Of a stretch of 64,000 nucleotides of DNA, positions 3,414-62,492 are shown one piece after another. Made by a program: the position numbers and the translations under genes. Position 1 is the stretch's first letter. Every line of letters starts with the position of its first letter. Where the stretch lies: positions 60,408-124,407 of the forward strand of contig CACIDF010000001.1 of NCBI GenBank assembly GCA_902585365.1, read 5' to 3'. Below the pieces are notes generated by a model, which was not told the origin of the DNA, searched no databases, and was given only the letters and a program-made list of their open reading frames with translations. The DNA is from an uncultured Pelagibacteraceae bacterium (lineage in GTDB: Bacteria > Pseudomonadota > Alphaproteobacteria > Pelagibacterales > Pelagibacteraceae).

Positions 3414-3421
3414 ATTTTATA

Positions 3422-7805: not shown

Positions 7806-7832
7806 ACAATGTTATACTTCATGATAAATTTT

Positions 7833-8606: not shown

Positions 8607-8610
8607 AATT

Positions 8611-23498: not shown

Positions 23499-23502
23499 AA
23501 AT

Positions 23503-24351: not shown

Positions 24352-24357
24352 TTTATC

Positions 24358-26968
<2,611 letters not shown>

Positions 26969-47805: not shown

Positions 47806-49493
47806 TCTCTACAAAAATTAAGAAGTTAAGGCAAAAATTTTCAAAATATAATATTGATGGATATATTGTGCCTAAAAATGATGAGTATTTTAACGAGTAT
47901 TCATTTCCTGACAGATTAAAATTCATATCTGATTTTGATGGATCAGCAGGACTAGCTGTTATTTTGTTTAAAAAAAATTATCTATTTGTAGATGGGAGAT
48001 ATACGATACAAGCCAAATTCCAATCTGGAAAAAATTTCAATATTTTTGAGATACACAAAAAATTACCATGGAAAGTTTTAAAACATAGGATCAAGTTAGG
48101 TTATAATCCATATTGTTTCACGAGCATAGGTTTAAAAAGATATTTTAAAAATTACTTTACATTAGTACCAATACACACAGATTTAGTTAGAACCATAAAA
48201 TCGAAAAAAATTAATAATAAATTTTTTTTTTTAAAGAATAATATTTCAGGGGAAAGTTCTAAAAATAAAATTAAAAAAGTTATAAATTTCCTTAATAAAG
48301 ACAAATCTGATTGTATTTTCATAACCGCGCCTGAAAACGTTGCTTGGTTATTAAATATTAGAGGTAAAGATAATCCCCACAGTCCAATTCCAAATTGCAG
48401 GGTAATTTTGAAAAAAAATGGTAAAATACATTTATTCACAAAAAAAACAAAAATACAATATTTGCTCAAAAAAAATAATTCATTGAAAATAACATTGGTG
48501 GATCAAAATAAAATTAGTATTTTTTTAAAAAATCTTAATTCAAAGAAAATTATATTAGATAACTTGAGTTGTTCCTTAGCTTATGAAAATTTAATAAAAA
48601 ATAAAATCGATATATCAAGTCAAAACGACCCAATATATAATATGAAATCTATAAAAAATAATATTGAAATTAAAAATATTATTAAGTCACATATTTTTGA
48701 TGGAGTGGCAGTAACTAAATTCTTGTACTGGATTAAAAAATGTAAAAAAAAAATTACTGAATTAGCGGCTGAAAAGAAATTAGAATACTTTAGAAAAAAA
48801 AATCAAAATTATTTATATCCAAGTTTTAATACAATTTCTGCATCAGGAGCACATGGTGCAATTATTCATTATAGAGCCACTAAAAACTCAAATAGATTAA
48901 TCAAAAAACAAGATATTTACTTGTGCGACTCAGGTGGTCAATATAAATATGGGACAACTGATGTTACAAGAACAATGAGTTTAAACAAACAAACTAAAAA
49001 AATTAAAGATATATTTACTTATGTTTTAAAGGGTCACATAGCAGTTGCTAGTGCTAATTTAAATAAAATTAAAAGGGCAAATTTATTAGATAATTTAGCT
49101 AGAAAATTTCTAAATAAAAAAGGTTTAGATTACCCACATGGCACAGGGCACGGGGTAGGTTTTTTTCTTAATGTGCATGAGGGTCCTATAGCAATATCTA
49201 AGGGTTATAAAGTGATGATTAAACCAGGACAAGTGATGAGCAATGAACCAGGATTTTATAAAAAAGGTAAATTTGGTATTAGATTAGAAAATATGATTTA
49301 TGTTAAACAATTAAAAAATAAAATATTTTTTAAAAATTTAACGATGGTGCCATTTGATAAAGATTTAATAAATATTGATCTTCTTACTTATAAGGAAAAG
49401 AATTATCTGATCAATTACAATTTGGAGATTTACTCAAATATCCAAAAACATTTAACTTATAAGGAAAAGTTTTGGCTATTGTCTCAATTTTGA
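47802..49493 (+). CDS. Aminopeptidase P family protein (M24B)
   Basis: DGRY, DSGGQY, GTTDVTRT, HGTGHGVG, VHEGP, SNEPG, GIRLEN motifs. Confidence 0.9.
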   Translation: MISTKIKKLRQKFSKYNIDGYIVPKNDEYFNEYSFPDRLKFISDFDGSAGLAVILFKKNYLFVDGRYTIQAKFQSGKNFNIFEIHKKLPWKVLKHRIKLGYNPYCFTSIGLKRYFKNYFTLVPIHTDLVRTIKSKKINNKFFFLKNNISGESSKNKIKKVINFLNKDKSDCIFITAPENVAWLLNIRGKDNPHSPIPNCRVILKKNGKIHLFTKKTKIQYLLKKNNSLKITLVDQNKISIFLKNLNSKKIILDNLSCSLAYENLIKNKIDISSQNDPIYNMKSIKNNIEIKNIIKSHIFDGVAVTKFLYWIKKCKKKITELAAEKKLEYFRKKNQNYLYPSFNTISASGAHGAIIHYRATKNSNRLIKKQDIYLCDSGGQYKYGTTDVTRTMSLNKQTKKIKDIFTYVLKGHIAVASANLNKIKRANLLDNLARKFLNKKGLDYPHGTGHGVGFFLNVHEGPIAISKGYKVMIKPGQVMSNEPGFYKKGKFGIRLENMIYVKQLKNKIFFKNLTMVPFDKDLINIDLLTYKEKNYLINYNLEIYSNIQKHLTYKEKFWLLSQF

Positions 49494-51497
49494 AATTTTT
49501 TCAAAATCTGTTTGGTTCAATATTTTGACTTTCAAATCATTGGCCATTTTTACTTTTCTTGACGTGGGCTTTTCACCTGTAATTAAATAATCTAGTTTTT
49601 TGGAGACATTGCTTACAATTTTTCCTCCATTATTCTCAACTATTGATTTAGCCTCTGCTCTACTAATATTGTTTAGCTTTCCAGTGAACATTAAGATTTT
49701 ATTGGAAAATACTCCCCCTTTTTTTTTAGTAATATTCTTTTCAATAAATAAAATTTTACTTAAAGATGAAATAACTTTTAGATTTAAATTATTTTTAAAA
49801 AAATTTTTTAAAGAAGTTATTTGTGTCCCTCCGATGCCATCAATATTTGATAAATCTTCAATATTTTTTTGGTCTTTTAATTTAATAAAATTAGAATAGT
49901 TACCTAAAAATTCAGATATTAGCTTTGCATTTTCTTGGCCTATGTGTCTAATACCGAGAGAATAAATAAATCTGTCTAATTTTAATTTTTTTGATTTATT
50001 AATTGAGTTCTTTAAATTTTCTGCTGATTGAGAACCCCAGCCCTCTAGTTTAGAGATTTTTTCAAAGTTTAAATTAAATATATCATTAGGAAGTTTTATA
50101 AATTTTAAATCCCAAAACTTTTCAATTACCTTTTTCCCAAGCCCTTCTATATTTAGTGCATCTTTAGATACAAAATGTTTAAGTTTTTCCTTAGCTATTC
50201 TATTGCAATCAAAACCTACATCAGGACATCTTCTGACTGCATCAATTTTTTTTGTGACTTCATTAAATTCTTTAATAGTGTCGTAACCACAAGGACATTT
50301 TTTTGGAAAAGTAAATTTTTTTATATTTGAGTTTCTTAAATTTTTATCTACCGAAATAACGTGTGGAATTACATCGCCAGCTCTCTCGATTTTAACAGTG
50401 TCACCTATTCTTATATCTTTTCTTATTATTTCATCTTCATTGTGTAAAGTTGCATTAGAAACCATTACACCACCTATGTTAACAGGTTTGACTTTCGCAA
50501 CCGGCGTTAAAGCTCCAGTTCTTCCAACTTGAATATCAATATCAATAATTTTAGTGACTGAATAATTAGCAGAAAATTTATGTGCAACAGCCCATCTAGG
50601 TGCTGTAGCCATAAAACCCAATCTTTTTTGTAAGCTAAAATCATTGACCTTATACACAATGCCATCGATATCATATTTCAAATCAAATCTTCTTTTTTCA
50701 ATGTCAAAATGGTACTTAACTAAATTATCAACACCCTTAATTGTTTTATTTAATTCAGAAGTTTTAAAATTCCATTTATCTAAATCTTTTATAAAATCAC
50801 TTTGATTTTTTGATTTCATATCTGAAGTAAAACCAAAGGTATAGGCAATAAATTTTAATGGTATTAATTTAGTTTTGTTTGGATCTTTTTGCCTTAGTGA
50901 TCCTGAAGCTGCATTTCTTGGATTAGCAAAATCTTTTTCGATCTTTTTAAAATCATCTGTTTCAATGAAGACCTCGCCTCTTATATCAATTTCCTCGGGA
51001 AAATCTGGATGAGAAACATTCAATGGAATATCCCTAATCGTTTTTAAATTTTCAGTTATATCTTCGCCTTCTTCACCGTCACCTCTTGACAAGCCTCTTA
51101 TCAATTTCCCATTCTTGTAATTAAGTGAGGCAGAAATACCATCTATTTTAGGTTCGGCACTATATTCAAATTCATAATTTTTATCTAAGGCTAGAAAATT
51201 AATATTTTTTTTTTGAAAATTAATTAAATCTTCCTGATTAAATGCATTTGATAGCGACAACATTTTCACTTTATGCTTAAATTTTTGAAATTTTTTTGAG
51301 GGTTTATAACCAATTTTAGTGCTTGGCGATTTCGTGTCATCAAAACCATGTTTCTTCTCTAATTCTAAAATTTCTCTTTTTAATTTGTCAAACTCCTTAT
51401 CAGATACAATTGGCTTTTGATCTTGGTAATAAAATTTATTATACTTTTCTAATAAATTTAACTTATTTTTATAGTCTTTTAATGATGAACTGCTCAT
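49476..51497 (-). CDS. ligA: NAD-dependent DNA ligase
   Basis: EPKIDG, RGDG-EGEDIT, NPRNAASGSLRQ, QVGRTG, RAGDVIP, C-terminal BRCT. Confidence 0.96.
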   Translation of the reverse strand: MSSSSLKDYKNKLNLLEKYNKFYYQDQKPIVSDKEFDKLKREILELEKKHGFDDTKSPSTKIGYKPSKKFQKFKHKVKMLSLSNAFNQEDLINFQKKNINFLALDKNYEFEYSAEPKIDGISASLNYKNGKLIRGLSRGDGEEGEDITENLKTIRDIPLNVSHPDFPEEIDIRGEVFIETDDFKKIEKDFANPRNAASGSLRQKDPNKTKLIPLKFIAYTFGFTSDMKSKNQSDFIKDLDKWNFKTSELNKTIKGVDNLVKYHFDIEKRRFDLKYDIDGIVYKVNDFSLQKRLGFMATAPRWAVAHKFSANYSVTKIIDIDIQVGRTGALTPVAKVKPVNIGGVMVSNATLHNEDEIIRKDIRIGDTVKIERAGDVIPHVISVDKNLRNSNIKKFTFPKKCPCGYDTIKEFNEVTKKIDAVRRCPDVGFDCNRIAKEKLKHFVSKDALNIEGLGKKVIEKFWDLKFIKLPNDIFNLNFEKISKLEGWGSQSAENLKNSINKSKKLKLDRFIYSLGIRHIGQENAKLISEFLGNYSNFIKLKDQKNIEDLSNIDGIGGTQITSLKNFFKNNLNLKVISSLSKILFIEKNITKKKGGVFSNKILMFTGKLNNISRAEAKSIVENNGGKIVSNVSKKLDYLITGEKPTSRKVKMANDLKVKILNQTDFEKISKLRQ

Positions 51498-51501
51498 TAT
51501 A

Positions 51502-52332
51502 TTAATAAAGAAGTTTTTTGAATTTTTTAAATATACCCTCTTTTTCTTTTTTGATCTCTATATCGGACTTATAATTTTCATTGAAAATTTTATAGGTTTT
51601 TGAATACCATTCGCTTGATTGATAATTATAACCTAATAATGAGGCATATTTTTGAGACTCCTCTACAAGGCCTAGCTTATAATGAAGTTCTACTAATCTA
51701 TGAAGAGCTTCGTCTATAAATGAAGTTTCGTCATATTTATCTACAACATTTTTAAAACGATTTATTGCAGCAATCCACTTATTCTTTTTGACGTAATGCA
51801 TACCAATATACATCTCTTTTGATGCAAGGTAATCTTGAATTAGATCTAATTTATAACCAGAGTCTAGTGCAAAATCTGTGTTAGGGTAATTTTTTTCAAT
51901 AAACTTAAATTTTTCCTCAGCCATTATTAAAGGTCTTAGATCTTTTTTTTCATCTATAATTTTTTCATAGTAAATCATAGCTAGCAAGTAATGAGCATAA
52001 GGAATATTTTTTTCATTGGGATAAACTTTTAAATATCTATTTAATTCATACTCAGCATCATAATAATAATCTTGAGAATAATAAGAGTAAGCCGCCATCA
52101 AAGCTGCTCTGGGTGCCCATTGAGATTGTGGATAAAGAAGTTCAGCTTCATTAAATTTTTTCGCAGCAAATAAAACATCTCCATTTTCAAGTTCTTTGTA
52201 ACCCTCCTCAAAAGCTTCTATCATTTGTGTTTCAATATTTTTTTCTTTAACTACAGAAATCTTTTCGTCTTTTGAGCAAGAAATTGTTAAAATTACCAAT
52301 ATTAATAAAATAAAATTATTTAAAATTTTCAT
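51502..52332 (-). CDS. bamD: Outer membrane protein assembly lipoprotein BamD
   Basis: Lipobox TISC, TPRs, AAINRF, EALHRLVE, LGYNY--SEWY motifs. Confidence 0.92.
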   Translation of the reverse strand: MKILNNFILLILVILTISCSKDEKISVVKEKNIETQMIEAFEEGYKELENGDVLFAAKKFNEAELLYPQSQWAPRAALMAAYSYYSQDYYYDAEYELNRYLKVYPNEKNIPYAHYLLAMIYYEKIIDEKKDLRPLIMAEEKFKFIEKNYPNTDFALDSGYKLDLIQDYLASKEMYIGMHYVKKNKWIAAINRFKNVVDKYDETSFIDEALHRLVELHYKLGLVEESQKYASLLGYNYQSSEWYSKTYKIFNENYKSDIEIKKEKEGIFKKFKKLLY

Positions 52333-52371: not shown

Positions 52372-53292
52372 TTAAGCTGTAGATTTTAAAGGATTCTTTA
52401 CCAAAAAAGAATGTGGTATATTTTTTTCTTTTAGTTCAATTACTGAAAAGTTCTCATTATTGCTCAATAAATCTCTTAAACCTTGATTTGTTACATTATG
52501 ACCACCCTGACTAGAGGTAATTTTGCCGACCATTCTATACCCAACCAGATAAATATCTCCAAGACAATCTAAAATTTTATGATTAACGAACTCTTTTGAA
52601 TTTCTTAATTTTTCAGAATTAAGTATCTCGTTATCTTTTAAAACTATAGCATTATCTAAACTTCCTCCCTGAGCTAAACCCATTTTTTTTAATTTTTCTA
52701 CATCCTCAAATAAGCAGAATGTTCTTGAATTATACATATCCGTTAAATCATCCATGTATATATTCTTATTATTTTTTTGGTTTAAAATTGAACTTTGTTT
52801 ATATTTAATTTCAAAATCTATTTCTAAACTGATTTTGTTTGGCTCAAATGTAATAAATTTTTCACCATCTTTGTAAGTAATTTTCTTATTAATCTTAATT
52901 ATTCTAATTGGTTGATCACTAACTTTAAAACCTACTTCATTAATATTTTCTACAAAATTTTTGGCAGACCCATCCATTATTGGTAGTTCCTCAGAATTTA
53001 AATCAATTAGAAGATTGTCTATGCCTAATCCACAAAGTGCAGCCATTAAATGCTCAACAGTTGAAACACTAATACCGTATTCATTTGTCAATTTTGTACA
53101 ATAGGAAGCACTAGAGACATTGTGCACACTTGGATATATTAAGTTATTTTTTTTTATATCAGTTCTTTTAAATATAATTCCATGGTTTGGTGGAGCTGGA
53201 TGCAAAGTCATTGAAACTTTATTTCCAGAATGAAGTCCAACTCCTCTAAAATTTAAGCTATCATTAATTGTTTTTTGGTTTAAAACCGACAT
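52372..53292 (-). CDS. lpxC: UDP-3-O-acyl-N-acetylglucosamine deacetylase
   Basis: GVGLHSG, TVEHLMAAL, PIMDGSA, SRTF, HKILD--GD motifs; start placed at 53292. Confidence 0.95.
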   Translation of the reverse strand: MSVLNQKTINDSLNFRGVGLHSGNKVSMTLHPAPPNHGIIFKRTDIKKNNLIYPSVHNVSSASYCTKLTNEYGISVSTVEHLMAALCGLGIDNLLIDLNSEELPIMDGSAKNFVENINEVGFKVSDQPIRIIKINKKITYKDGEKFITFEPNKISLEIDFEIKYKQSSILNQKNNKNIYMDDLTDMYNSRTFCLFEDVEKLKKMGLAQGGSLDNAIVLKDNEILNSEKLRNSKEFVNHKILDCLGDIYLVGYRMVGKITSSQGGHNVTNQGLRDLLSNNENFSVIELKEKNIPHSFLVKNPLKSTA

Positions 53293-53358
53293 TAAACGCT
53301 TATAGATCTTAGTAATTAACAAGGAAAAACAAGTTATGTTACAAAAGAATACAAATAT

Positions 53359-54069
53359 TTAATCAAAAAAATTGAAAATTTTATCAAAAATAGCTTGTTT
53401 TTTTTGGGTTTTTTTCTCCTGATAAACTTCTGATTGATTTATGCCATTTAGAACTTTGTGAGCAGAAAGACACATCGTATCATCTGTGTGATTTTTTGAA
53501 AATTTTTTAGCGTAATCATATGACACGATTTTTCTTATATTAATTTTACATTCATTAAATAACTTTTTTAACTTATTGATAAGGTTTTTATCTATACAAA
53601 TAAATTCAATTTCTAAGATAATTTTTTTAAATTTGATATTATTTGGTAAGAATTTATAAACCTTATCATCAATTACATATTTGTTTATAATAATATGAAT
53701 AATAGATAAATTTTGTTCATCCATATAAAATTTTTGAATATAACTTTGCAATAAATTAGCGACGACTTTTTTATCAAGTTTTTTTTCATCAAAAATATTT
53801 TTAATACTAAATAAGATGCTTTGATAGGAATCGGACTGAATAGATATATTCCCGTTGTTTAGAAAAAAACCTAGGTTTTTTTCTATTTTTCTAATATTAT
53901 CTCTTAATAAGTTTAATATTATTTTAAAATTTAAGTTGTTATTTAAATTATCAGGAATTTCAAAATTTAAGCTTTCTTTATATACATTTTTTCCTTCCTC
54001 AAAAAAACATATATGAATTTTTTTATCAGATATCCCAAAGTAAAAATCTCCTTTTTCAAAGTTACTCAT
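53359..54069 (-). CDS. ftsA: Truncated, divergent FtsA-like protein
   Basis: Directly after ftsQ; R-IEK-LG and IIHII---Y-ID resemble FtsA 1A/1C (SHS2); C-terminal amphipathic helix IFDKIFNFFD; only 236 aa. Confidence 0.6.
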   Translation of the reverse strand: MSNFEKGDFYFGISDKKIHICFFEEGKNVYKESLNFEIPDNLNNNLNFKIILNLLRDNIRKIEKNLGFFLNNGNISIQSDSYQSILFSIKNIFDEKKLDKKVVANLLQSYIQKFYMDEQNLSIIHIIINKYVIDDKVYKFLPNNIKFKKIILEIEFICIDKNLINKLKKLFNECKINIRKIVSYDYAKKFSKNHTDDTMCLSAHKVLNGINQSEVYQEKKTQKKQAIFDKIFNFFD

Positions 54070-54736
54070 ATTTTATTATTTTATTTTTGATTCTTAAATC
54101 AATTACTTTAGAATTTGCAAATTCTTTTCTGTTCAACAATTCGCTGCTGTAATCAATTATTTTTTGATTAAACTTTATTGGAAATTTAATAATTATACCT
54201 TTGCTTAAATACACATCAAACCTTCCACTTTTAAAAAATTTGATTTCACTTATCATTTTATAATCTAAATTTGATTGATTTATTAAATTTACTACATCGT
54301 AAATATTTTCGATATCATCAGAGCCTGAGATAGTTGGAAAATTATTTTCATTTAGTTCAGTTTTTAATATTTTGCCATTATCACCTAAGATAATTTTATT
54401 ATTATCATTTTCAACTATATACATTGGTTTTGCAGGTATAAAATTGATAACTAACTTGTTAGGAAAATTTTTTTTTATAAATAAATATTTTATATCATTT
54501 CTATTTGTTAAATCTGTAAAATAATTTTTACTTATAAACAAAATGTTTTTTTCATATAAATTTTTAAATTCATTTTTTATTAATTCGTTTTTTTCTTTGG
54601 AAAATCCCTCAACATTAATATATTTAATGTTAAATATATTTTTGTTAATTAGTTTATAGTTATTTATTGAAGTTAATATTATTATTAATGAACTGTAAAA
54701 AAAAAATTTAGTTTTTTTATCTATTTTTTGATGCAT
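54062..54736 (-). CDS. ftsQ: Cell division protein FtsQ/DivIB
   Basis: TM, POTRA (INVEG...KKNFPNKL), GRFD, IDLR motifs; follows ddl. Confidence 0.85.
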   Translation of the reverse strand: MHQKIDKKTKFFFYSSLIIILTSINNYKLINKNIFNIKYINVEGFSKEKNELIKNEFKNLYEKNILFISKNYFTDLTNRNDIKYLFIKKNFPNKLVINFIPAKPMYIVENDNNKIILGDNGKILKTELNENNFPTISGSDDIENIYDVVNLINQSNLDYKMISEIKFFKSGRFDVYLSKGIIIKFPIKFNQKIIDYSSELLNRKEFANSKVIDLRIKNKIIKYE

Positions 54737-55625
54737 CTTTTATCATCCAGTTAATTAATGAACTAAAATTTATTCCTTTATATGCAGCAATCTCTGGAAC
54801 TAATGAAAGATCAGTCATACCTGGTTGAGTATTAAGTTCCAGTAAATAAAATTTATTTTTATAAAATTTAAAGTCAGACCTGGTTACACCTCTACAATTT
54901 AATAATCTATGTGCTTTCAGAGCAATTTTATTAATTTTATCATAATTTTTTTTGCTTAAATTCACAGGGATTATATGTTCGGTTTTTGCGTTAGTGTAAT
55001 ATTTTGCTTTATAATCGTAAAATTTTCTTTTTGGTTTAAGCTCTATTGGACCTAGTGCTTTATTGCCCATTACGGCCACTTGTATCTCTCTTCCCGGGAT
55101 AAACTTTTCGATAAGTATTTCTTTATAATTTCTCATTTTTTTCAGCTTATTTGATAATGAAAACTTATTATTACAAATATAAACATCTAAACTTGATCCT
55201 TCATTAATTGGTTTGATAACTACTGGAAAATTCAAATAATTTTTAATTCTTCTATAATCTAAATTTCTAATATTTTTTATTTTAATATATTTAGGTGTGG
55301 GTATTTTATTTTTTATGAATATTTTTTTTGAAATTTCTTTGTCAATTGCCATCATTGAAGATTTAACACCTGAATGGGTGTATTTGACTCCCAGAGTCTC
55401 TAAGACTGATTGCATGTAACCATCTTCACCAAATCTTCCATGTAAAGCATTAAAAATTACATCAGGCTTGAAACTTTTAACTGCTCCCAAAAAATTTCTG
55501 CTTGGATCAGAAAATTTAACATTATGAATTTTCTTAATTGATTTGATAATAGCTTTAGCAGATTTAAGACTTATGAAGCGCTCTTTTGAGTATCCACCCC
55601 CTAAGACTAAAACCTTTTTTTTCAT
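54717..55625 (-). CDS. ddl: D-alanine--D-alanine ligase
   Basis: GGYSKER, LHGRFGEDG, KPINEGSS, YDYKAKY, ELNTQPGMT motifs. Confidence 0.95.
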   Translation of the reverse strand: MKKKVLVLGGGYSKERFISLKSAKAIIKSIKKIHNVKFSDPSRNFLGAVKSFKPDVIFNALHGRFGEDGYMQSVLETLGVKYTHSGVKSSMMAIDKEISKKIFIKNKIPTPKYIKIKNIRNLDYRRIKNYLNFPVVIKPINEGSSLDVYICNNKFSLSNKLKKMRNYKEILIEKFIPGREIQVAVMGNKALGPIELKPKRKFYDYKAKYYTNAKTEHIIPVNLSKKNYDKINKIALKAHRLLNCRGVTRSDFKFYKNKFYLLELNTQPGMTDLSLVPEIAAYKGINFSSLINWMIKDASKNR

Positions 55626-56534
55626 TTAATTCACTATTTCCAGTTCTAGTTCAAGTGATACACCAGTACTTTCTTTTACTCTTTTTTTAACAAAGTTGAT
55701 TAAATCATACATATTATTAAATGAGGCATTATTGCTATTTATAAAAAAGTTACTATGCTTTTCAGATATTTTTGCATCGCCGAAACTTACTTGGTTGTCT
55801 ACATTTTCTCTTATAAGTTCCCAAACTTTTTTTTTTAAACTATTTTTTGGGTTCTTAAAAGTGCTTCCACCAGTTTTAACTCTTAATGGTTGAGAGTTCT
55901 GTTTTTTTTCTTTTAATTTAATAATATTTTCTACTATTTGTGTTTTGTCTTTTTTACTTGTTTTAAAAGATGCGCTTAAAAAAATAAGATTTTTTGGTAG
56001 ATCTGTTTGTCTATAATCAAATTTTATGTTTTTTGAATTAATTGTGTGCACATTACCATTTAGATCAATAACTTGAACAGAAAGTAGAACATCTTTGAAC
56101 TCTGTACCAAAACATCCAGAATTCATCCTTATTCCACCTCCAATAGATCCTGGTATACATGATAAAAACTCTAAACCACTTAAATGATTCTCACATGCAA
56201 AATTTGATACATTTTTGTCTAAAATTGAGCAACCTGCAATAATAACATTATCCTTTGTTAGTGAAATTTTATTAAAATTTTTACCTAATTTAATAAAAAT
56301 ACGATTTTGAATATTTTCTGATATAAGCAAATTTGAGCCAGCCCCGATTATAAAAGGGCTTAGATTTTTTTTTTTTAGATATAATAAAAAATCTTTTAGT
56401 TCAATTAAAGTCTCTGGAACAAAAAAAATTTTTGCATTTCCACCAATGTTTAACCAAGTATGTTTTTTTAAGCTATAATTAAATTTTATTTTTCCTTGGA
56501 TTTTTTTTGAAAAACTATTTAAATCTTCTAACAT
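55626..56534 (-). CDS. murB: UDP-N-acetylmuramate dehydrogenase
   Basis: IGG-A, GAGSNLL, IPGSIGG, GGSTFKNP, KHSNF, LELE motifs; start placed at 56534. Confidence 0.93.
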   Translation of the reverse strand: MLEDLNSFSKKIQGKIKFNYSLKKHTWLNIGGNAKIFFVPETLIELKDFLLYLKKKNLSPFIIGAGSNLLISENIQNRIFIKLGKNFNKISLTKDNVIIAGCSILDKNVSNFACENHLSGLEFLSCIPGSIGGGIRMNSGCFGTEFKDVLLSVQVIDLNGNVHTINSKNIKFDYRQTDLPKNLIFLSASFKTSKKDKTQIVENIIKLKEKKQNSQPLRVKTGGSTFKNPKNSLKKKVWELIRENVDNQVSFGDAKISEKHSNFFINSNNASFNNMYDLINFVKKRVKESTGVSLELELEIVN

Positions 56535-57934
56535 TATTTTCTCATTAAACTTGGTAACTCTTTTATCCAATTTGATATAGAGCCGGCACCCATACCTATC
56601 ACTATATCTTCTTGATTTAAAAAGTTTTTTAAAAATTTTGCTAACTGATTTTGGCTATTTACAAAAAATACTCTAACTTTTGATTGTTTTATAATTTGTT
56701 TTGCAAACTCACTGTAATTTAAATTTAGCTTTAAGTTTTCACCTGCTTTATAAATTGGGCATAATATAACTGAGTCTGATTTCTTAAATGAAGAGGAAAA
56801 TTCATTTTTTAAATCATTTAATCTAGAAATTCTATGTGGTTGGAACACACATATTATCTTTTTTTCTTTATAACTATTGTTTACCCCATTTATAACCTCT
56901 TTTATCTCTGTAGGATGATGTGCATAATCATCATAAATATCTGCACCATTGTATGAAAAAATTTTATTAAATCTTCTCTCTACTCCTTTAAAATTTTTTA
57001 AGCTATTTTTCAAAGTTGTGGGAGATATACCTATAAAATATGAAACAGCTATGGCAGCTGTTGCATTTTTTATGTTATGATACCCAATCAAGGGGATCTC
57101 AATTTTTTTTAAAAGAGTTTTTTTTTTATTAGGAAGACGCATTTCAATATCAAATATAGATTTATTTTTTAAGAATGAGCAATTCTTGATTTTGAAATTT
57201 GAGTCTTTGCTAAATCCATATGTAAGTATATTTTTGATTTTACTTCTTTTCCAAATTTCTCTGTTATTCTTATCATCTATGCAAATAAATGTTTTACCAA
57301 AAGATGGTACTTTTTGCATAAATTTTATAAAATGTCTTTTTAGATCATCTAAAGATTTATAATAATCCATGTGTTCTCTATCAACATTTGTTACTACAGC
57401 ATATGTAGATGGAACTTTTATAAAACTTCCATCGGATTCATCAGACTCCAGAATGCTCCACTCACTTTTGCCAAGTTTGGCTGAATTATCTAGTGAATTG
57501 ATCACTCCACCATTAATAATGGTTGGGTCTAATTTTGCTTTTGCAAAAATAGATGCTATTAAAGAAGTGGTCGTAGTTTTTCCATGGGATCCTGACACGA
57601 CAATATTTTTTTTTAATGAAGTTATATGTGCTAACATATCTCCTCTCTTATAAATCGGTAAATTTCTTTTTTTTGCCTCTCTTATTTCTATATTGTTTTT
57701 CTTAATCGCTGAGGAGATTACTAAGATGGTTGCTTTTTTAATATTTGTTGAAGAGTGACCTAAAAAAAATTTAATACGACTTTTTTTTAACCTTTCTACA
57801 TTTTTATTAAGAGATTTGTCACTTCCTTGTACTTTAAAACCTAGCCCTATCATTATTAGAGCTAATCCACTCATACCAATCCCACCTATTCCTACAAAAT
57901 GTATAATTTCGGACTTAGCTAAGTTTATATTCAT
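56534..57934 (-). CDS. murC: UDP-N-acetylmuramate--L-alanine ligase
   Basis: HFVGIGGIGMSG, GSHGKTTTT, ESDESDGSF, DDYAHHPTE, FQPHR motifs. Confidence 0.96.
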   Translation of the reverse strand: MNINLAKSEIIHFVGIGGIGMSGLALIMIGLGFKVQGSDKSLNKNVERLKKSRIKFFLGHSSTNIKKATILVISSAIKKNNIEIREAKKRNLPIYKRGDMLAHITSLKKNIVVSGSHGKTTTTSLIASIFAKAKLDPTIINGGVINSLDNSAKLGKSEWSILESDESDGSFIKVPSTYAVVTNVDREHMDYYKSLDDLKRHFIKFMQKVPSFGKTFICIDDKNNREIWKRSKIKNILTYGFSKDSNFKIKNCSFLKNKSIFDIEMRLPNKKKTLLKKIEIPLIGYHNIKNATAAIAVSYFIGISPTTLKNSLKNFKGVERRFNKIFSYNGADIYDDYAHHPTEIKEVINGVNNSYKEKKIICVFQPHRISRLNDLKNEFSSSFKKSDSVILCPIYKAGENLKLNLNYSEFAKQIIKQSKVRVFFVNSQNQLAKFLKNFLNQEDIVIGMGAGSISNWIKELPSLMRK

Positions 57935-57937
57935 AAT

Positions 57938-58999
57938 TTATATTAGATTATTTATTTGATTAGAATTTTTAACCCAATCATATTTTTTATGGAAAATATA
58001 CATATTTTTTTTTTTTTGAAATATTATTTTTTTGTTTTTAATCAAGTTTGTAACAAATTTATACAAAAAATTTTTTTTAACATTAGTTTCTCTTATTAAC
58101 CAACCAAGATTTTTTTTTACATAATATTTCGCATTATAAAATTGATGATCATCCTTAGCGAATGGGTAAGGTATGGCTAAAAAAGGTGTTCCCAAAAATA
58201 CTAATTCGTTAATAGTGGATGCGCCTGATCTTGTTATTGCAAAATCACTTTTTTTTATAAATTTATGTAAGTCCTTAACATATGAAAAAACCCTAAAATT
58301 TATGTTTTTTGACAAATAAAAATTTTTAAGATCTTTTAAATTATTTTTGCTAGTTTGATGAAAAATTTTAATTTTATATTTTTTTGATAGTTTGATTAAA
58401 TCTTTATTAAATAAAGTATCGAATTTTTTTGCGCCTTGACTCCCGCCTATTATTAATATTGTAAATAATTTTGATTTTTTCTTAACTCTATATTTTGAAA
58501 GAAAAATATTTTTTCTAATTAATGGTTTGATTACAAAATTTTTGTAAATCATTTTTTTTGGTAAATTTTTTATTTTTTTGTTATATGTGATTATTTTATC
58601 ACAATAATTCAATAATAATAGATTTGATCTTCCTATAACCATATTTGGTTCAAATAAAAAAATTTTTAAATTTAACATTCTAGCAGCTAAACAGATAGGT
58701 ACAGACATGTAGCCTCCCGTAGATATTAATATTTCAATTTTTTTATTAATTAAAAACAGGTATGACTTTAATACAGATAAGGCAAAAGAAATTATGAATG
58801 GAATAAATAGTAATATATTTCTGCTAAATTTAGGTAAATCTATTTGCTTAATTTTATATTTTTTTTTGTTTAAATAAGTAATTCCTCTTTTATCAGTACA
58901 AATGAAAATTTTATTTTTGTCTGATAAGTAATCATATAAAACCTGAGCTGGAATTACGTGACCTCCTGTACCTCCAGTACTGATGACAATTTTTTTCAT
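57938..58999 (-). CDS. murG: Undecaprenyl-PP-MurNAc-pentapeptide GlcNAc transferase
   Basis: GGTGGHVIPA, TGGY, GGSQGA, RSGAST, DHQFYNA motifs. Confidence 0.94.
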   Translation of the reverse strand: MKKIVISTGGTGGHVIPAQVLYDYLSDKNKIFICTDKRGITYLNKKKYKIKQIDLPKFSRNILLFIPFIISFALSVLKSYLFLINKKIEILISTGGYMSVPICLAARMLNLKIFLFEPNMVIGRSNLLLLNYCDKIITYNKKIKNLPKKMIYKNFVIKPLIRKNIFLSKYRVKKKSKLFTILIIGGSQGAKKFDTLFNKDLIKLSKKYKIKIFHQTSKNNLKDLKNFYLSKNINFRVFSYVKDLHKFIKKSDFAITRSGASTINELVFLGTPFLAIPYPFAKDDHQFYNAKYYVKKNLGWLIRETNVKKNFLYKFVTNLIKNKKIIFQKKKNMYIFHKKYDWVKNSNQINNLI

Positions 59000-59003
59000 A
59001 AAT

Positions 59004-60122
59004 TTAAATCTTTCTTTTTGTAAAGTTTAATATTAATCCTGCAAGTATTGATGAGCTTAATATTGAAGATCCTCCGTAACTTAAAAAAGGTAAGGTCATA
59101 CCTGTTGTTGGTAGAAATCTAATATTTACACCAATGTGAATTAACACCTGGAATATAATTAATAATATAGATCCGATTAAAACAAGTTTATTAATATTAT
59201 TTTTTTCAGTCGGAATTTTTTTAAATACTTTAAATATCAAAAGTAAGAAAATGAATAAAATAAATAATATTATCAAAATTCCGAACTCTTCGGCAATAAC
59301 TGAAATTACGTAATCTGTATGAGCCTCGGGAACACGTGCATTTAATGTTCCTTCACCGATCCCTTTTCCAAAAAAACCTCCATCAACAATTGCGTCAGTT
59401 GCCTTTTCTGACTGATAATTACCGCTTGATTTTGGATCAAAAAATGCTGCTATTCTATATTTTATATAAGAAAATTTTGGTAAAAATATAACTAAATATC
59501 CTAACAATGAGATCGAGGCTAATATTAAAAAGTTAAATAAATAAAGATTAATTCCTGACACAAATATAAGACACAACCACACACAAGATATTAATAAAGT
59601 TTGTCCAATATCTGGTTGCAAAACCAAAAAAAACAAAATGGGCAAAACAATTAATGTGCTTAAAAAAAATTTTAGGTAATCATTAGACGTAAACCTTGAG
59701 CCAATAACCATTGATAAAAATATTATTAAAAAAGGTTTTAGAAACTCAATGGGCTGAAATCTTGGTATAATTGGGATATCTAACCACCTTTTTGAGCCTT
59801 TAATTTCAATTCCGAAAATTGGAACTAATAATAGAGAAATAAAAAAGATAAAAAATATTATTGCTCCTATTTTGTAAATATCGCTCTCCGGAATAGCTGA
59901 AAAAAAAATTATTAAAGTTAAACCAAGAAAAATATAAATTATGTGTCTCATAAAAAAATAATAATTATTTGTTCCTAACTTAGAAGATGCAATTAATGAT
60001 GTTGATACTAAAGAAAAAAAAATACCTAATACAATTAAGGATATAAATAAAAAAAAAATTACTTTATCTAAATTTTTCCACCAATCATAAATAAAGTTAT
60101 CGTAAATATTTTTATTTTCCAT
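59004..60122 (-). CDS. ftsW: SEDS family cell division protein FtsW
   Basis: GSKRW, FQPIEFLKP, QPDIGQ, PEAHTDY, LPFLSYGGSS motifs; dcw position. Confidence 0.93.
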   Translation of the reverse strand: MENKNIYDNFIYDWWKNLDKVIFFLFISLIVLGIFFSLVSTSLIASSKLGTNNYYFFMRHIIYIFLGLTLIIFFSAIPESDIYKIGAIIFFIFFISLLLVPIFGIEIKGSKRWLDIPIIPRFQPIEFLKPFLIIFLSMVIGSRFTSNDYLKFFLSTLIVLPILFFLVLQPDIGQTLLISCVWLCLIFVSGINLYLFNFLILASISLLGYLVIFLPKFSYIKYRIAAFFDPKSSGNYQSEKATDAIVDGGFFGKGIGEGTLNARVPEAHTDYVISVIAEEFGILIILFILFIFLLLIFKVFKKIPTEKNNINKLVLIGSILLIIFQVLIHIGVNIRFLPTTGMTLPFLSYGGSSILSSSILAGLILNFTKRKI

Positions 60123-61407
60123 ATAAATTTATTTTTTTTAATATTGAATTAAAACGTTCTCCACGATGTTCGAAATTTTTGAATTGATCAAATGAAGCAG
60201 CCGCAGGGCTAAACAATATTGTTTTTTTATTTTTGTCTTTTTTAATGTCTTTTTTTATAGTTATAATTGCTTTTTTTAAATTTTTTAAATATTTAAAATT
60301 TATCTTATTTTTAAATTGACTGATAAAATAATCTTTATTTTTGCCAATTATATAAGCGCAAATATTTTTATAATATTTTTTTTCTAAAATAAATTTATCG
60401 CCTTTTTTAAACAAACCACCCACTATCCAATAAATATTTTTATAAGTAGATAAAAGACCATTGGTAGAGGAAAAAGTGGTAGATTTTGAATCATTAATTA
60501 TTTTTAAATTATATTTATTGTAGACAATTTGTTTTCTAAATTTTAATCCCTTGAATGAGTTAAGAGATTTGAATATTTTATCATTAGATATTCCAAAAAT
60601 TTTTGATATCCTATAAACGAAATGAATATTATTTAAATTATTTTTATCTAATAAATAGTCATTATTAATATTTTTCTTAAAAAAATAAGATTTGTTATAA
60701 CTAACTTTTATAATTTTAGATTGAATATTTTTGTTCAATATAAATCTATTTATTATTACACTATCCCTTTCTATAAATGATAGTTTATTTTTTTCTTGAT
60801 CACAAATTAGTTTAATTTTGGCTTTTGCGTATTTTTTGAGACTTTTGTGTCTTTCTAAATGATCTACATTTAAGTTTAAAATCACTGCATAATCAGTTTT
60901 AAAATACTTGTTATAAGATATTTGATATGATGATGCCTCAACGATAAAAATAGTATTTTTTTTAATTTTTTTTTCTTGTAAAGGTGGTTTTCCAATATTG
61001 CCAACTAACCTAACATCTAATTTTTTTAATCTAAAAATATTATATAGCATTTGACAAGTAGTAGATTTTCCATTCGTTCCAGTAATAGTTATTTTTTTGT
61101 TATTCGGATATGTTAAGTAAAAAATATCAAGCTCAGTGATTACCCTACTCCAATTCTTGATTATATATTTTTTAAGATTGCATCTTTGAAAATCTATACC
61201 GGGGCTTAATATAATAAAATCAAATTTTAGCTTAATAATATTGTTTTTACTTAGGAAATATTTTTTGTTTTTTTTATCTTTTAATGAAATATTGTCATCA
61301 AAAATCTTAACGTTATTTTTCTTTTTCAGAAAATTTAAGCATGAATGACCGGAAAGGCCTAAACCATAAATTAATATTTTCTTTTTTACTAGATCTCCGG
61401 TTTGCAT
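60112..61407 (-). CDS. murD: UDP-N-acetylmuramoyl-L-alanine--D-glutamate ligase
   Basis: YGLGLSG, SPGI, TGTNGKST, EASSYQ, DHLERH, NDSKST, SPAAASFDQF motifs; start placed at 61407. Confidence 0.93.
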   Translation of the reverse strand: MQTGDLVKKKILIYGLGLSGHSCLNFLKKKNNVKIFDDNISLKDKKNKKYFLSKNNIIKLKFDFIILSPGIDFQRCNLKKYIIKNWSRVITELDIFYLTYPNNKKITITGTNGKSTTCQMLYNIFRLKKLDVRLVGNIGKPPLQEKKIKKNTIFIVEASSYQISYNKYFKTDYAVILNLNVDHLERHKSLKKYAKAKIKLICDQEKNKLSFIERDSVIINRFILNKNIQSKIIKVSYNKSYFFKKNINNDYLLDKNNLNNIHFVYRISKIFGISNDKIFKSLNSFKGLKFRKQIVYNKYNLKIINDSKSTTFSSTNGLLSTYKNIYWIVGGLFKKGDKFILEKKYYKNICAYIIGKNKDYFISQFKNKINFKYLKNLKKAIITIKKDIKKDKNKKTILFSPAAASFDQFKNFEHRGERFNSILKKINLYGK

Positions 61408-62492
61408 TATCTTAATTTTAATGTTGCAAGACCAATCATTGCTAAAATTAGAGAAATAATCCAAAATCTTATGACCACTGTAGACTCTGCCCACCCTTTT
61501 TTCTCAAAATGATGATGAATAGGGGCCATCATGAATATTCTTTTTCCAGTTAATTTAAAAGAAATTACCTGCACAATTACAGACACAGCTTCTAAAACAA
61601 AAAGCCCTCCTGTTATTGCTAAAACTATCTCATGTTTTGTTACTACTCCTACAGCACCCAAAGAGCCACCTAATGCTAAAGAACCTGTATCGCCCATAAA
61701 TATTTTTGCAGGTGGTGCATTAAACCATAAAAATCCTATCGAGGCCCCAATAATTGCTCCACAAAAAACAGCGACCTCTCCAACTCCTTTTATGTAAGGT
61801 ATCAAAAGATATTCGGCAAAAATTATATTACCAGATACGTAACTTATAAAAGCAAAACATCCTGCAACTAAAATGACTGGTACAGTAGCTAACCCGTCAA
61901 GACCATCTGTTAAATTAACTGCATTAGATGATCCAACAACCACAAATAAGTAAAAAGGAATAAAAAACCATCCTAAATTTATTACTAGGTTTTTGAAAAA
62001 AGGAAAATATAAATTATTAGTTAATTCTGACCCTATGAATTTATATAAGATTATTAAAGAAATTAGACTAATAATAATTTGTATTAAAAATTTTAATTTT
62101 GATGAAATTCCAGAAGAATTTTTGTTTTTTATTTTTTTATAATCATCAAAGGCACCGAGTATTCCAAATGAAAAAGTTATAAAGATTAGCAACCAATTGT
62201 ATGGGTTAAATAAGTCTGACCATAGAAAAACCCCAACAAATAATCCAATTAAAATTAACACACCTCCCATCGTTGGTGTTCCTATTTTTTTTATGAGATG
62301 TTCCTCTGGTCCATCTAATCTTATTGGGTTGGTAATTTTTTTTGCAGAAAAAAAATTTATAAATCTATCACCAATAATAAAAACTATAATCATTGATGTA
62401 ATAACTGCTAATCCAGTTCGTACGGTTAAAAAATTAAAAAAATTTAAAAAAGAGTAAGTATCTGAATAGTTAGTTAATAGATTATAAAGCAT
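61407..62492 (-). CDS. mraY: Phospho-N-acetylmuramoyl-pentapeptide transferase
   Basis: GTPTMGG, NAVNLTDGLDG, FMGDTGS, MAPIHHHFE motifs. Confidence 0.97.
   Translation of the reverse strand: MLYNLLTNYSDTYSFLNFFNFLTVRTGLAVITSMIIVFIIGDRFINFFSAKKITNPIRLDGPEEHLIKKIGTPTMGGVLILIGLFVGVFLWSDLFNPYNWLLIFITFSFGILGAFDDYKKIKNKNSSGISSKLKFLIQIIISLISLIILYKFIGSELTNNLYFPFFKNLVINLGWFFIPFYLFVVVGSSNAVNLTDGLDGLATVPVILVAGCFAFISYVSGNIIFAEYLLIPYIKGVGEVAVFCGAIIGASIGFLWFNAPPAKIFMGDTGSLALGGSLGAVGVVTKHEIVLAITGGLFVLEAVSVIVQVISFKLTGKRIFMMAPIHHHFEKKGWAESTVVIRFWIISLILAMIGLATLKLR

What the first reader, a model, noticed from the sequence alone, without database searches (positions are those of the whole stretch)
53293..53358. 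dcw cluster has no ftsZ: ftsA-like gene is followed by lpxC after only 66 bp
Seen: murEF-mraY-murD-ftsW-murG-murC-murB-ddl-ftsQ-ftsA'-lpxC-bamD-ligA is contiguous, no ORF in the window has the tubulin signature GGGTG(T/S)G, and no ftsZ remnant is visible in the gap. Known: ftsQ-ftsA-ftsZ-lpxC is among the most conserved gene orders in Proteobacteria, and FtsZ-less walled bacteria (Chlamydiae, Planctomycetes) are rare, with MreB driving division in Chlamydiae. The complete mreBCD-mrdA-rodA operon is present in this window. Inference: either ftsZ has been relocated (the simplest explanation) or this lineage divides by a modified, possibly FtsZ-independent mechanism. A 64-kb window cannot distinguish these.
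Basis: partly seen in the sequence, partly recalled or inferred. Interest (0 to 1): 0.78.

Follow-up and report, generated by a model that had tools for sequence, protein, structure and literature searches.

The report
ftsZ moved to operon front
The cell-division gene ftsZ is not missing from this SAR11-type marine bacterium: it has moved about 15 kb up the same gene cluster to sit right behind the regulator gene mraZ, an old change shared by the whole order, so there is no sign of FtsZ-free division.

Summary
On the minus strand ftsQ is followed by a 236-aa FtsA-like gene, exactly 66 bp (53293-53358), then lpxC. The window holds no tubulin signature and no ftsZ remnant.

The FtsZ-less reading is refuted. 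One intact ftsZ lies on the same contig and strand, 4.3 kb beyond the window end. It sits between mraZ and rsmH and starts 13 nt after the mraZ stop, behind a strong ribosome-binding site. It scores 387 bits against TIGR00065 and keeps GGGTGTG and the C-terminal EIPAFLRRQ peptide.

- The mraZ-ftsZ-rsmH order was found in all 18 loci examined in both families of the order.
- ftsA-lpxC adjacency was found in all 25 loci examined, and in three independent Tara assemblies.
- Of 60 other alphaproteobacterial families, 53 keep ftsA-ftsZ. One, the order TMED127, shares the SAR11 layout.
- 10-nt-periodic CCCA repeats at the mraZ promoter suggest ftsZ is now under direct MraZ control. This is inferred, not tested.

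This scan has already reported the same move on other SAR11 DNA and, convergently, in SAR86. I found no paper that discusses it.

The side result is more interesting. The FtsA-like gene is a selected half-FtsA (1A and 1C domains plus the membrane tail) that lacks the lobe which binds FtsZ in Thermotoga FtsA.

The parts
53293..53358 (-). The 66-bp ftsA'-lpxC intergenic gap, which is the empty canonical ftsZ slot. It holds a conserved block GTAACA-N4-TTGTTTTT (53325-53342) and TATAAG (53299-53304) 6 nt before the lpxC ATG. This may be an lpxC promoter or control site.
   Evidence: Sequence. No ftsZ remnant. Of the 23 gap sequences listed, 22 carry a GTAA[CT]A-like hexamer; in most it is followed 3-5 nt later by TTGT. 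The consensus scan calls no sigma-70 promoter or terminator in the gap.
53359..54069 (-). ftsA' encodes a 236-aa half-FtsA: domains 1A and 1C, followed directly by the C-terminal amphipathic tail. The 2A/2B lobe is deleted.
   Evidence: TIGR01174 27.6 bits against a cut-off of 175.85, matching profile positions 53-185 only. No Pfam hit. Alignment with the 370-410-aa forms shows the internal deletion. AF2 pLDDT 79. The top Foldseek hits are all FtsA, e.g. 4a2a at E 3e-12. dN/dS 0.17. 225 protein clusters match at E<=0.001, and the 120 listed are 231-237 aa.
52372..53292 (-). lpxC
   Evidence: PF03331, 309.8 bits. The start codon was fixed by frame.
54062..54736 (-). ftsQ
   Evidence: PF03799, 31.3 bits.
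54717..62492 (-). ddl, murB, murC, murG, ftsW, murD and mraY, in canonical order and tightly packed.
   Evidence: Pfam for ddl to ftsW. ORF positions for murD and mraY, with Pfam families on the matching genes of the Tara contigs.
62492..64000 (-). The 3' part of a 940-aa murE-murF fusion gene that runs off the window end. Beyond the window follow, in window-equivalent coordinates: ftsI 65327-66982, ftsL 66963-67238, rsmH 67235-68239, ftsZ 68258-69730, mraZ 69744-70199, the promoter with CCCA boxes at about 70230-70270, rnpB 70332-70686, and an amidase 70724-71455.
   Evidence: Locus L002 is G000:C1:122000-140000. Pfam. FtsZ sequence and junction. rnpB, RF00010 at 289 bits. Promoter-like site. 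CCCA repeats.
49476..52332 (-). bamD and ligA, downstream of lpxC.
   Evidence: Pfam.
19890..25392 (-). rodA, mrdA (PBP2), an mreD-position ORF, mreC and mreB.
   Evidence: Pfam. The 170-aa ORF has no Pfam hit.

Best explanation
ftsZ was cut out of its ancestral place between ftsA and lpxC and re-inserted between mraZ and rsmH, at the promoter-proximal end of the same division and cell-wall operon. This happened before the order (SAR11/Pelagibacterales) diversified.

Shown:
- There is a single intact ftsZ. It is the second cistron, 13 nt after mraZ, with an AAGGGGGA ribosome-binding site.
- rsmH follows 18 nt later, and no terminator-like site was called on the coding strand between mraZ and the start of rsmH.
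- The rest of the cluster keeps the textbook order down to ftsQ-ftsA'-lpxC.
- The old slot holds only a 66-bp spacer with a conserved motif.

Inferred:
- ftsZ is transcribed from the mraZ promoter. That promoter carries 2-5 CCCA (TGGG on the other strand) repeats at a 10-nt period, overlapping the -10 region in this genome, laid out like known MraZ operator boxes.
- FtsZ supply would then be set by promoter-proximal position and MraZ autoregulation, not by the internal ftsQ/ftsA promoters of E. coli.
- ftsZ expression would also be uncoupled from ftsA.
- Division itself remains FtsZ-based.

In this genus the uncoupling goes further. FtsA has shrunk to a 236-aa membrane-tailed 1A+1C half. It lacks the 2B lobe that binds the FtsZ tail in the Thermotoga FtsA-FtsZ complex. 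The unchanged FtsZ C-terminal peptide is therefore probably held at the membrane by another partner. A heparinase-II/III-like candidate for the FzlC role is present.
For: - One Tubulin/FtsZ match in the whole assembly, at G000:C1:129607-130092(-), on the window's own contig.
- Pfam Tubulin 164.7 bits plus FtsZ_C 118 bits, flanked by MraZ and MraW/RsmH. TIGR00065 386.9 bits against a cut-off of 295.2.
- GGGTGTG and EIPAFLRRQ are present. The junction sequence carries the ribosome-binding site.
- No terminator on the coding strand in L002 6000-9300.
- amidase-(rnpB)-mraZ-ftsZ-rsmH in 12 loci of the second family, in 5 further genera of the window's own family, and in the own genome.
- ddl-ftsQ-ftsA-lpxC-bamD in 25 of 25 order loci and in 3 Tara assemblies.
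- 53 of 60 other alphaproteobacterial families have ftsA directly before ftsZ, mostly followed by lpxC. The ancestral state is therefore clear.
- CCCA repeats at a 10-nt period lie upstream of mraZ in all 18 loci. Known MraZ boxes are 4-nt GTG(G/T) repeats with 6-nt spacers, usually three of them, lying upstream of the dcw cluster, with the transcription start inside the first box in M. genitalium (PMC12957436).
- Half-FtsA.
- The FtsZ tail is invariant whatever the FtsA length.
- A 547-aa PF07940 protein occurs in the own genome and in 4 relatives, and the control search rings in Caulobacter. FzlC binds the FtsZ C-terminal peptide and anchors FtsZ to the membrane (bioRxiv 10.1101/171280).
Against: - No transcript data, so co-transcription of mraZ and ftsZ and MraZ binding to the CCCA boxes are untested.
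- The boxes read TGGG on the strand opposite to mraZ, which is not the published GTG(G/T) form.
- Promoter-like hexamers are no more frequent than in shuffled sequence.
- The own genome is only 74% complete, so absences in it (ZapA, full-length FtsA) rest on complete relatives.
- That FzlC is the heparinase-II/III-like protein of Caulobacter is from my memory plus the control hit, not from a sequence comparison.
- The half-FtsA might still bind FtsZ through another surface.
Confidence: 0.9

Rival explanations
1. The lineage has lost ftsZ and divides by an FtsZ-independent, MreB/elongasome-driven mechanism, as Chlamydiae do.
For: Only the empty slot itself, the presence of mreBCD-mrdA-rodA in the window, and the published loss of several Z-ring regulators in SAR11 (zipA, ftsE, mipZ, minCD, sepF; bioRxiv 10.1101/2025.06.25.661606).
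Against: An intact ftsZ with all its motifs lies on the same contig. ftsZ was found in 35 of 41 relatives, and five of the six genomes without a match are 55-72% complete assemblies. It was found in 5 of 5 further genera of the family.
Confidence: 0.01
2. The junction is an assembly artefact, for example a collapsed or chimeric join that dropped ftsZ.
For: The genome is a 43-contig, 74%-complete assembly.
Against: The same junction is present in three independent Tara assemblies from different samples and in 25 genomes of the order, among them single-contig assemblies. ftsZ is found once, at the other end of the cluster, in every locus examined.
Confidence: 0.01
3. The native ftsZ was lost and the copy behind mraZ is a horizontally acquired replacement, rather than a translocated native gene.
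For: The same mraZ-ftsZ-rsmH layout appears in another order (TMED127). Earlier notes of this scan report it in SAR86. A mobile mraZ-ftsZ module is therefore conceivable.
Against: In an FtsZ-core tree the order's sequences form one clade (support 94) nested among alphaproteobacterial FtsZ, with no foreign affinity. The flanking amidase, rnpB and mraZ context is also found in other alphaproteobacterial families. No mobile-element genes lie at either junction.
Confidence: 0.04
4. The move is real but selectively neutral. ftsZ keeps a promoter of its own and MraZ plays no part, so nothing about regulation has changed.
For: No expression data exist. Promoter-like hexamers occur at chance frequency, one of them (CTGAAA-16-TAGAAT) just inside the start of ftsZ. 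MraZ is dispensable in several model bacteria (my knowledge).
Against: The junction is 13-30 nt with a conserved strong ribosome-binding site in all 18 loci, which leaves little room for a promoter. The layout has been kept across an order-level divergence and recurs in TMED127. Per earlier scan notes it also recurs in SAR86. Recurrence argues for selection on position.
Confidence: 0.2

Closest known systems
Canonical proteobacterial dcw cluster (E. coli and Caulobacter type: mraZ-rsmH-ftsL-ftsI-murE-murF-mraY-murD-ftsW-murG-murC-(murB)-ddl-ftsQ-ftsA-ftsZ-lpxC)
   Same: Same gene set, same strand, tight packing, and the same order for every gene other than ftsZ. lpxC still closes the cluster.
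   Different: ftsZ is gene 2 instead of the last division gene. This breaks both the mraZ-rsmH and the ftsA-ftsZ adjacencies. murE and murF are fused into a 940-aa protein. ftsA is half-size.
Minimal Mycoplasma dcw operon (mraZ-mraW-ftsA*-ftsZ) under MraZ control (PMC12957436)
   Same: ftsZ lies in a short line behind mraZ and a promoter that carries repeated 4-nt boxes at a 10-nt period. Both genomes are streamlined.
   Different: In Mycoplasma the order mraZ-mraW is kept and ftsZ is still last. Here ftsZ is inserted between mraZ and rsmH, and a full cell-wall gene set follows. The box sequence here is CCCA/TGGG, and binding is untested.
mraZ-ftsZ-rsmH layouts noted earlier by this scan in SAR11 and, convergently, in SAR86 and other marine Gammaproteobacteria (e1-5050539, e1-2348512, e1-2334159, e1-2315759, e1-2330113, e1-3211113)
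   Same: The same move is seen from the other end: those notes started at the mraZ-ftsZ junction, this one at the empty slot.
   Different: Added here:
- TMED127 shares the layout.
- The empty slot carries a conserved motif.
- FtsA length falls from 393-410 aa to 368-371 and then 232-236 within the genus.

I did not re-test the SAR86 claims.
FtsZ-less walled bacteria (Chlamydiae, Planctomycetes)
   Same: Only the superficial absence of ftsZ from its usual place.
   Different: This genome has an intact FtsZ. It is not a member of that group.
FtsA (PDB 4a2a, 7q6d) and the half-actin adaptors GspL/EpsL (1yf5, 1w97, 4pht)
   Same: The 236-aa protein superposes on FtsA domains 1A and 1C (TM 0.57-0.67 over about 190 residues). 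More weakly it also matches cyto-EpsL/GspL, which are likewise roughly 230-residue proteins.
   Different: It has no 2A/2B lobe, no intact phosphate-binding motifs, and a score far below the FtsA family cut-off. The full-length forms in sister genera are ordinary FtsA, e.g. E 3e-24 to E. coli FtsA 7q6d.

Membership tests
FtsZ (TIGR00065; Pfam Tubulin + FtsZ_C), tested on the relocated gene | Score over the curated family cut-off | tested here: met
   TIGR00065 386.9 bits against a cut-off of 295.2. PF00091 164.7 bits and PF12327 118 bits.
FtsZ (TIGR00065; Pfam Tubulin + FtsZ_C), tested on the relocated gene | Tubulin signature GGGTG(T/S)G | tested here: met
   GMGGGTGTGAA in the translation.
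FtsZ (TIGR00065; Pfam Tubulin + FtsZ_C), tested on the relocated gene | Disordered linker followed by a conserved C-terminal peptide for membrane anchors | tested here: met
   ...DELEIPAFLRRQRN at the C-terminus. The peptide is invariant across the order.
Canonical dcw cluster | mraZ immediately followed by rsmH | tested here: not met
   ftsZ lies between them in all 18 order loci.
Canonical dcw cluster | ftsQ-ftsA-ftsZ-lpxC order | tested here: not met
   ftsA' is followed by 66 bp and then lpxC. The same holds in 25 of 25 order loci.
Canonical dcw cluster | Remaining genes (ftsL to ftsQ) in conserved order on one strand | tested here: met
FtsZ-less bacteria (Chlamydiae/Planctomycetes type) | No ftsZ anywhere in the genome | tested here: not met
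   One intact ftsZ in the assembly.
FtsA (TIGR01174), tested on the 236-aa gene | Score over the curated family cut-off | tested here: not met
   27.6 bits against 175.85. Only profile positions 53-185 of 371 are matched.
FtsA (TIGR01174), tested on the 236-aa gene | 1A + 1C (SHS2) domains | tested here: met
   The AF2 model (pLDDT 79) matches FtsA structures best, e.g. 4a2a at E 3e-12 with 188 aligned columns.
FtsA (TIGR01174), tested on the 236-aa gene | 2A/2B lobe (nucleotide binding; the FtsZ-tail binding site in PDB 4a2a) | tested here: not met
   The alignment with the 370-410-aa forms shows this whole segment deleted.
FtsA (TIGR01174), tested on the 236-aa gene | C-terminal amphipathic membrane-targeting helix | tested here: inconclusive
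   The tail ...GxF(D/E)K(I/L)FxFF aligns with the tails of the long forms. AF2 gives it low confidence. Membrane binding is untested.
MraZ-controlled dcw promoter | Three or so repeated 4-nt boxes with 6-nt spacers at the promoter (PMC12957436) | tested here: inconclusive
   2-5 CCCA repeats at a 10-nt period in all 18 loci, overlapping the -10 hexamer in this genome. The box reads TGGG on the opposite strand, not GTG(G/T). Binding is not testable here.

The most novel reading that the evidence does not exclude
The gene-order uncoupling of ftsZ from ftsA at the base of SAR11 (and of TMED127) was followed in one SAR11 genus by physical uncoupling.
- FtsA lost its FtsZ-binding and ATP-binding lobe.
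- It survives under purifying selection as a membrane-tethered 1A+1C adaptor.
- The Z-ring is anchored only through another partner of the unchanged FtsZ tail, with an FzlC-like protein as the candidate.

This would be a natural, very abundant bacterium dividing with FtsZ but without a functional FtsZ-FtsA link. A second possibility is that the shared ftsZ move is a rare genomic change marking common ancestry of Pelagibacterales and TMED127/Methylaequorales.
Probability: 0.3. Interest if true: 0.65.

Novelty: new variant of a known kind. Interest (0 to 1): 0.4.

Why it matters
The alarming reading, a walled free-living proteobacterium without FtsZ, is wrong, and that needs to be on record.

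What remains is a clean, ancient exception to one of the most conserved gene orders in bacteria, in the most abundant bacterial order of the ocean. It puts ftsZ directly behind mraZ and its operator-like repeats. That makes SAR11 a natural test case for what MraZ is for, and for how a cell with almost no regulators sets its FtsZ dose. It also bears on the cell-cycle fragility recently reported for SAR11 (bioRxiv 10.1101/2025.06.25.661606).

The shared layout in TMED127 is an independent character for the disputed deep branching of streamlined marine Alphaproteobacteria.

The stepwise shrinkage of FtsA next to the empty slot raises a testable question: how is the Z-ring tethered when FtsA has lost the lobe that holds the FtsZ tail?

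Tried and rejected
- **Literature.** Searches for SAR11/Pelagibacter together with dcw, mraZ, ftsZ or ftsA found no paper on the gene order. The Megrian et al. dcw-evolution paper is not in the held library.
- **Identity of the second lineage.** I first guessed that the outgroup sharing the layout (G150) was HIMB59/AEGEAN-169. The HIMB59 papers hold none of the isolate names. bioRxiv 10.1101/2025.06.11.659106 names MED715, MED652, MED657, AG-892-F10 and TMED13 as order TMED127. A 1.41-Mb single-contig AT-rich genome (G168) keeps the canonical ftsA-ftsZ-lpxC order.
- **rnpB as a second shared character.** Rejected. rnpB lies just upstream of mraZ in 8 of 28 other alphaproteobacterial families as well.
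- **MipZ.** The PF09140 hits are weak partial matches, and the control search hits every control genome, so they are unspecific. The one in the window is a NUBPL/Mrp-type ATPase. No true MipZ.
- **FtsX.** Only weak hits, far below the cut-off, to 410-425-aa open frames.
- **The 'broken' ftsA' in complete genome G013.** It is a single frameshift at a T6A8 run, possibly a sequencing error. It is not evidence of pseudogenisation or of an altered genetic code.
- An off-frame lpxC query made lpxC invisible in the first outgroup survey. This was corrected.
- **Promoter in the gap.** I could not assign a sigma-70 promoter to the conserved motif.

Full report
**Observation**

The dcw genes lie on the minus strand of the window. 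ORF listing and Pfam give:
- ligA (49476-51497) and bamD (51502-52332)
- lpxC (52372-53292)
- an ORF with no Pfam hit (53359-54069, 236 aa)
- ftsQ (54062-54736), then ddl, murB, murC, murG and ftsW
- murD, mraY and the 3' part of a gene that runs off the window end

The in-frame lpxC ATG is at 53292. I first took 53293 and the tool rejected the frame.

No six-frame translation of the window has a tubulin G-box. tblastn with the genome's own FtsZ finds no remnant, only chance hits at E 0.6 and 3.3 elsewhere. The mreB, mreC, (mreD), mrdA and rodA block is at 19890-25392.

**Where ftsZ is**

A Tubulin/FtsZ profile search of the whole assembly gives one match. The assembly is 897 kb in 43 contigs and 74% complete. 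The match is at C1:129607-130092(-), on the window's own contig (window = C1:60408-124407).

I fetched C1:122000-140000 as L002. Pfam reads, on the same strand as the rest of the cluster:
- amidase (L002 9132-9863)
- mraZ (8152-8607)
- ftsZ (ORF 6666-8234)
- rsmH (5643-6647)
- a 91-aa ORF in the ftsL position
- ftsI
- a 940-aa murE-murF fusion (900-3722), whose 3' part is the last gene of the window

The 520-bp space between the amidase and mraZ holds the RNase P RNA gene (RF00010, 289 bits).

The true ftsZ start is the ATG at L002 8138. It lies 13 nt after the mraZ stop and is preceded by AAGGGGGA. The 490-aa product has GGGTGTG and ends in DELEIPAFLRRQRN. It scores 386.9 bits on TIGR00065 against a cut-off of 295.2.

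In window-equivalent coordinates ftsZ is at 68258-69730. That is 14.9 kb from its old slot and 4.3 kb past the window end. The twist is that the gene moved within the operon.

**How old and how general**

- With the window's own MraZ, FtsZ, RsmH and amidase as queries, 12 loci from the second family of the order all read amidase-mraZ-ftsZ-rsmH. Two of these loci are cut before rsmH.
- Five further genera of the window's own family read the same.
- ftsZ itself was found in 35 of 41 relatives. Five of the six genomes without a match are 55-72% complete; the sixth is 98% complete.
- At the other end, ddl-ftsQ-ftsA-lpxC-bamD holds in 25 of 25 loci from nine genera.
- Three Tara Oceans contigs from different samples show the 236-aa gene, 63 bp, then lpxC. 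An assembly artefact is excluded.

**Outgroups**

I sampled one genome from each of 60 other alphaproteobacterial families.
- 53 have ftsA directly before ftsZ, usually followed by lpxC or bamD.
- Five show ftsZ without recognised neighbours, some of them on short contigs.
- One, G150, has amidase-rnpB-mraZ-ftsZ-rsmH, just like SAR11, and also has ftsA-lpxC-bamD.

One of the 60 outgroup counts (L038) and one count come from genomes flagged as unpublished (G175 and G134). No conclusion depends on them.

**The second lineage**

A scan of genome records with G150's FtsZ returned 27 relatives at 50-100% identity, all at about 30% G+C. The 25 loci that reach upstream of ftsZ all read amidase-mraZ-ftsZ; two are cut inside ftsZ. 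rsmH follows ftsZ in all 27, but is inverted in one single-cell assembly.

Their record titles include MED715, MED652, MED657, AG-892-F10 and TMED13. bioRxiv 10.1101/2025.06.11.659106 assigns these to the GTDB order TMED127 ('Methylaequorales'), streamlined marine methylotrophs.

Is this one event or two?
- rnpB before mraZ is no extra evidence. It occurs in 8 of 28 other families too.
- In an FtsZ-core tree, SAR11 (support 94) and TMED127 (support 98) are each one clade on an unresolved backbone.
- Holding the two together is not rejected (p-AU 0.92). The constrained tree is even 42 log-likelihood units better than the quick free search.
- Both groups are long-branched and AT-rich, so this shows compatibility and not proof.
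- Earlier notes of this scan report the same layout arising independently in SAR86 (I did not re-test this). Convergence is therefore a live alternative.

**How it probably works**

No terminator-like site is called on the coding strand between mraZ and the start of rsmH. The mraZ-ftsZ spacer is 13-30 nt with a strong ribosome-binding site in all 18 loci.

Upstream of mraZ lies a TTGACT-17-TAATAT promoter-like site. It is overlapped and followed by CCCA repeats at an exact 10-nt period: aaCCCAtaatatCCCAaataatCCCAaatt. Every one of the 18 loci has 2-5 such repeats.

Published MraZ operators are repeated 4-nt GTG(G/T) boxes with 6-nt spacers, usually three of them, lying upstream of the dcw cluster. 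In M. genitalium the transcription start lies inside the first box (PMC12957436). The SAR11 repeats share number, period and place, but read TGGG on the other strand.

My inference is that ftsZ is co-transcribed with mraZ and subject to MraZ feedback. Its level would be fixed by promoter-proximal position rather than by internal ftsQ/ftsA promoters. This fits a lineage reported to lack zipA, ftsE, mipZ, minCD and sepF (bioRxiv 10.1101/2025.06.25.661606).

My own spot checks on this genome and four relatives agree:
- ZapA is present in the four relatives, all 99% complete. It was not found in the incomplete own genome.
- FtsK is present in all five genomes.
- There is no true MipZ.
- There is no FtsX over the cut-off.

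All of the regulatory part is inference. No expression data were available.

**The gene next to the empty slot**

The 236-aa ORF matches the FtsA equivalog model only weakly and partially: 27.6 bits, profile positions 53-185 of 371. No full-length FtsA is found in the assembly; the only other hits look like MreB and DnaK.

Across the order the gene in this position varies in length:
- 393-410 aa in the other genera. These are ordinary FtsA, e.g. E 3e-24 to E. coli FtsA 7q6d.
- 387 aa in one member of the window's genus and 368-371 aa in others.
- 232-236 aa in the rest, including this genome.

The alignment shows that the short form keeps the N-terminal 1A strands and the 1C domain. It then joins straight onto the C-terminal EV...KK.GFF(E/D)K(I/L)FxFF tail. 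The whole 2A/2B lobe is gone and the phosphate-1 motif has degenerated.

AlphaFold2 gives pLDDT 79. Foldseek's best matches are all FtsA, at E about 1e-11 to 1e-12 and TM 0.57-0.67 over about 190 residues. PilM and the half-actin adaptors GspL/EpsL follow.

The gene is not decaying. 225 protein clusters match it at E<=0.001, and the 120 listed are 231-237 aa at 62-87% identity. Against a Tara contig dN/dS is 0.17, compared with 0.22 for ftsQ and 0.07-0.09 for the neighbouring enzymes. The one 'broken' copy, in G013, is a single frameshift at a T6A8 run.

The FtsZ tail LEIPAFLRRQ is identical whether FtsA is 236 or about 400 aa. Something other than the FtsA 2B lobe must therefore constrain it. 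A 547-aa heparinase-II/III-like protein (PF07940) is present in this genome and in four relatives, and the control search rings in Caulobacter. In Caulobacter, FzlC binds the FtsZ C-terminal peptide and recruits FtsZ to the membrane before FtsA arrives (10.1101/171280). That FzlC is that Pfam family rests on my memory. I offer it as a candidate only.

This FtsA topic is the subject of a separate first-stage note on this window (e1-5463255). My results agree with it.

**The gap itself**

The 66 bp are not random filler. Of the 23 gap sequences listed from both families, 22 carry a GTAA[CT]A-like hexamer, in most of them followed 3-5 nt later by TTGT (here 53325-53342). In the window's genus a TA(T/A)AAG box lies 6-7 nt before the lpxC start (here 53299-53304).

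The consensus scan finds no sigma-70 promoter or terminator in the gap. I read the motif as a candidate lpxC promoter or control site, unproven.

**Verdict**

The relocation alternative is confirmed and made precise. FtsZ-independent division is refuted.

The layout is a lineage-wide variant of the dcw cluster. It is visible in public genomes and has already been noted several times by this scan on other DNA, but no paper I could search discusses it.

New here:
- The view from the vacated slot, with its conserved motif.
- The TMED127 co-occurrence.
- The graded loss of the FtsA second lobe in the genus that holds this genome.

Noticed in passing
L107 and L112-L138 (G150 and 27 related records): The order TMED127 ('Methylaequorales') shares the amidase-rnpB-mraZ-ftsZ-rsmH layout and the ftsA-lpxC junction with SAR11. 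53 of 60 other alphaproteobacterial families keep ftsA-ftsZ. This is either a shared derived character or convergence.
   Followed up: partly
window 53359-54069; L020-L028, L064-L078: FtsA length falls from 393-410 aa in other genera to 368-371 and then 232-236 aa within the window's genus. The short form is 1A+1C plus the membrane tail, is under purifying selection (dN/dS 0.17), and is widespread in marine metagenomes.
   Followed up: yes
window 53299-53342 (-): A conserved GTAACA-N3-5-TTGT block and a TATAAG box 6 nt before the lpxC start lie in the 66-bp gap. The GTAACA-like block is kept across both families of the order and the TATAAG box within the window's genus. Function unknown; possibly an lpxC promoter or a leaderless start.
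   Followed up: partly
L002:8640-8672 (-), window-equivalent about 70232-70264: Three CCCA repeats at a 10-nt period overlap the -10 of the mraZ promoter. All 18 order loci have 2-5 copies. They look like MraZ operator boxes.
   Followed up: partly
L002:900-3722 (-); window 62492-64000 is its 3' part: murE and murF are fused into a single 940-aa ORF with two Mur_ligase_M and two Mur_ligase_C domains. The same 940-aa gene is called on the Tara contigs.
   Followed up: no
L139-L142 (gammaproteobacterial / 'Piscirickettsiaceae' MAGs, G+C 0.52-0.56): ftsZ lies directly upstream of mraZ-rsmH, with no ftsA detected before it. This is a different relocation of ftsZ.
   Followed up: no
L048/L111 (G195, 0.9 Mb), L088 (G162), L090 (G149), L097 (G165), L100 (G156): In five other alphaproteobacterial families ftsZ has neither ftsA, mraZ nor lpxC recognisably next to it. 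Some of these are on short contigs. G195 also gave no MraZ hit.
   Followed up: no
G000:C2:24676-25377 (547-aa ORF): A heparinase-II/III-like (PF07940) protein is conserved in this genome and 4 relatives. It is a candidate counterpart of the Caulobacter FtsZ membrane anchor FzlC.
   Followed up: partly
L069:2263-2962 (G013, complete genome): The short ftsA' is interrupted by one frameshift at a T6A8 homopolymer. This could be a sequencing error, a real inactivation or slippage.
   Followed up: partly
L154 (G150:C4:201971-202750): lpxC of the long-read TMED127 MAG is split over several frames. Homopolymer errors are the likely cause.
   Followed up: no
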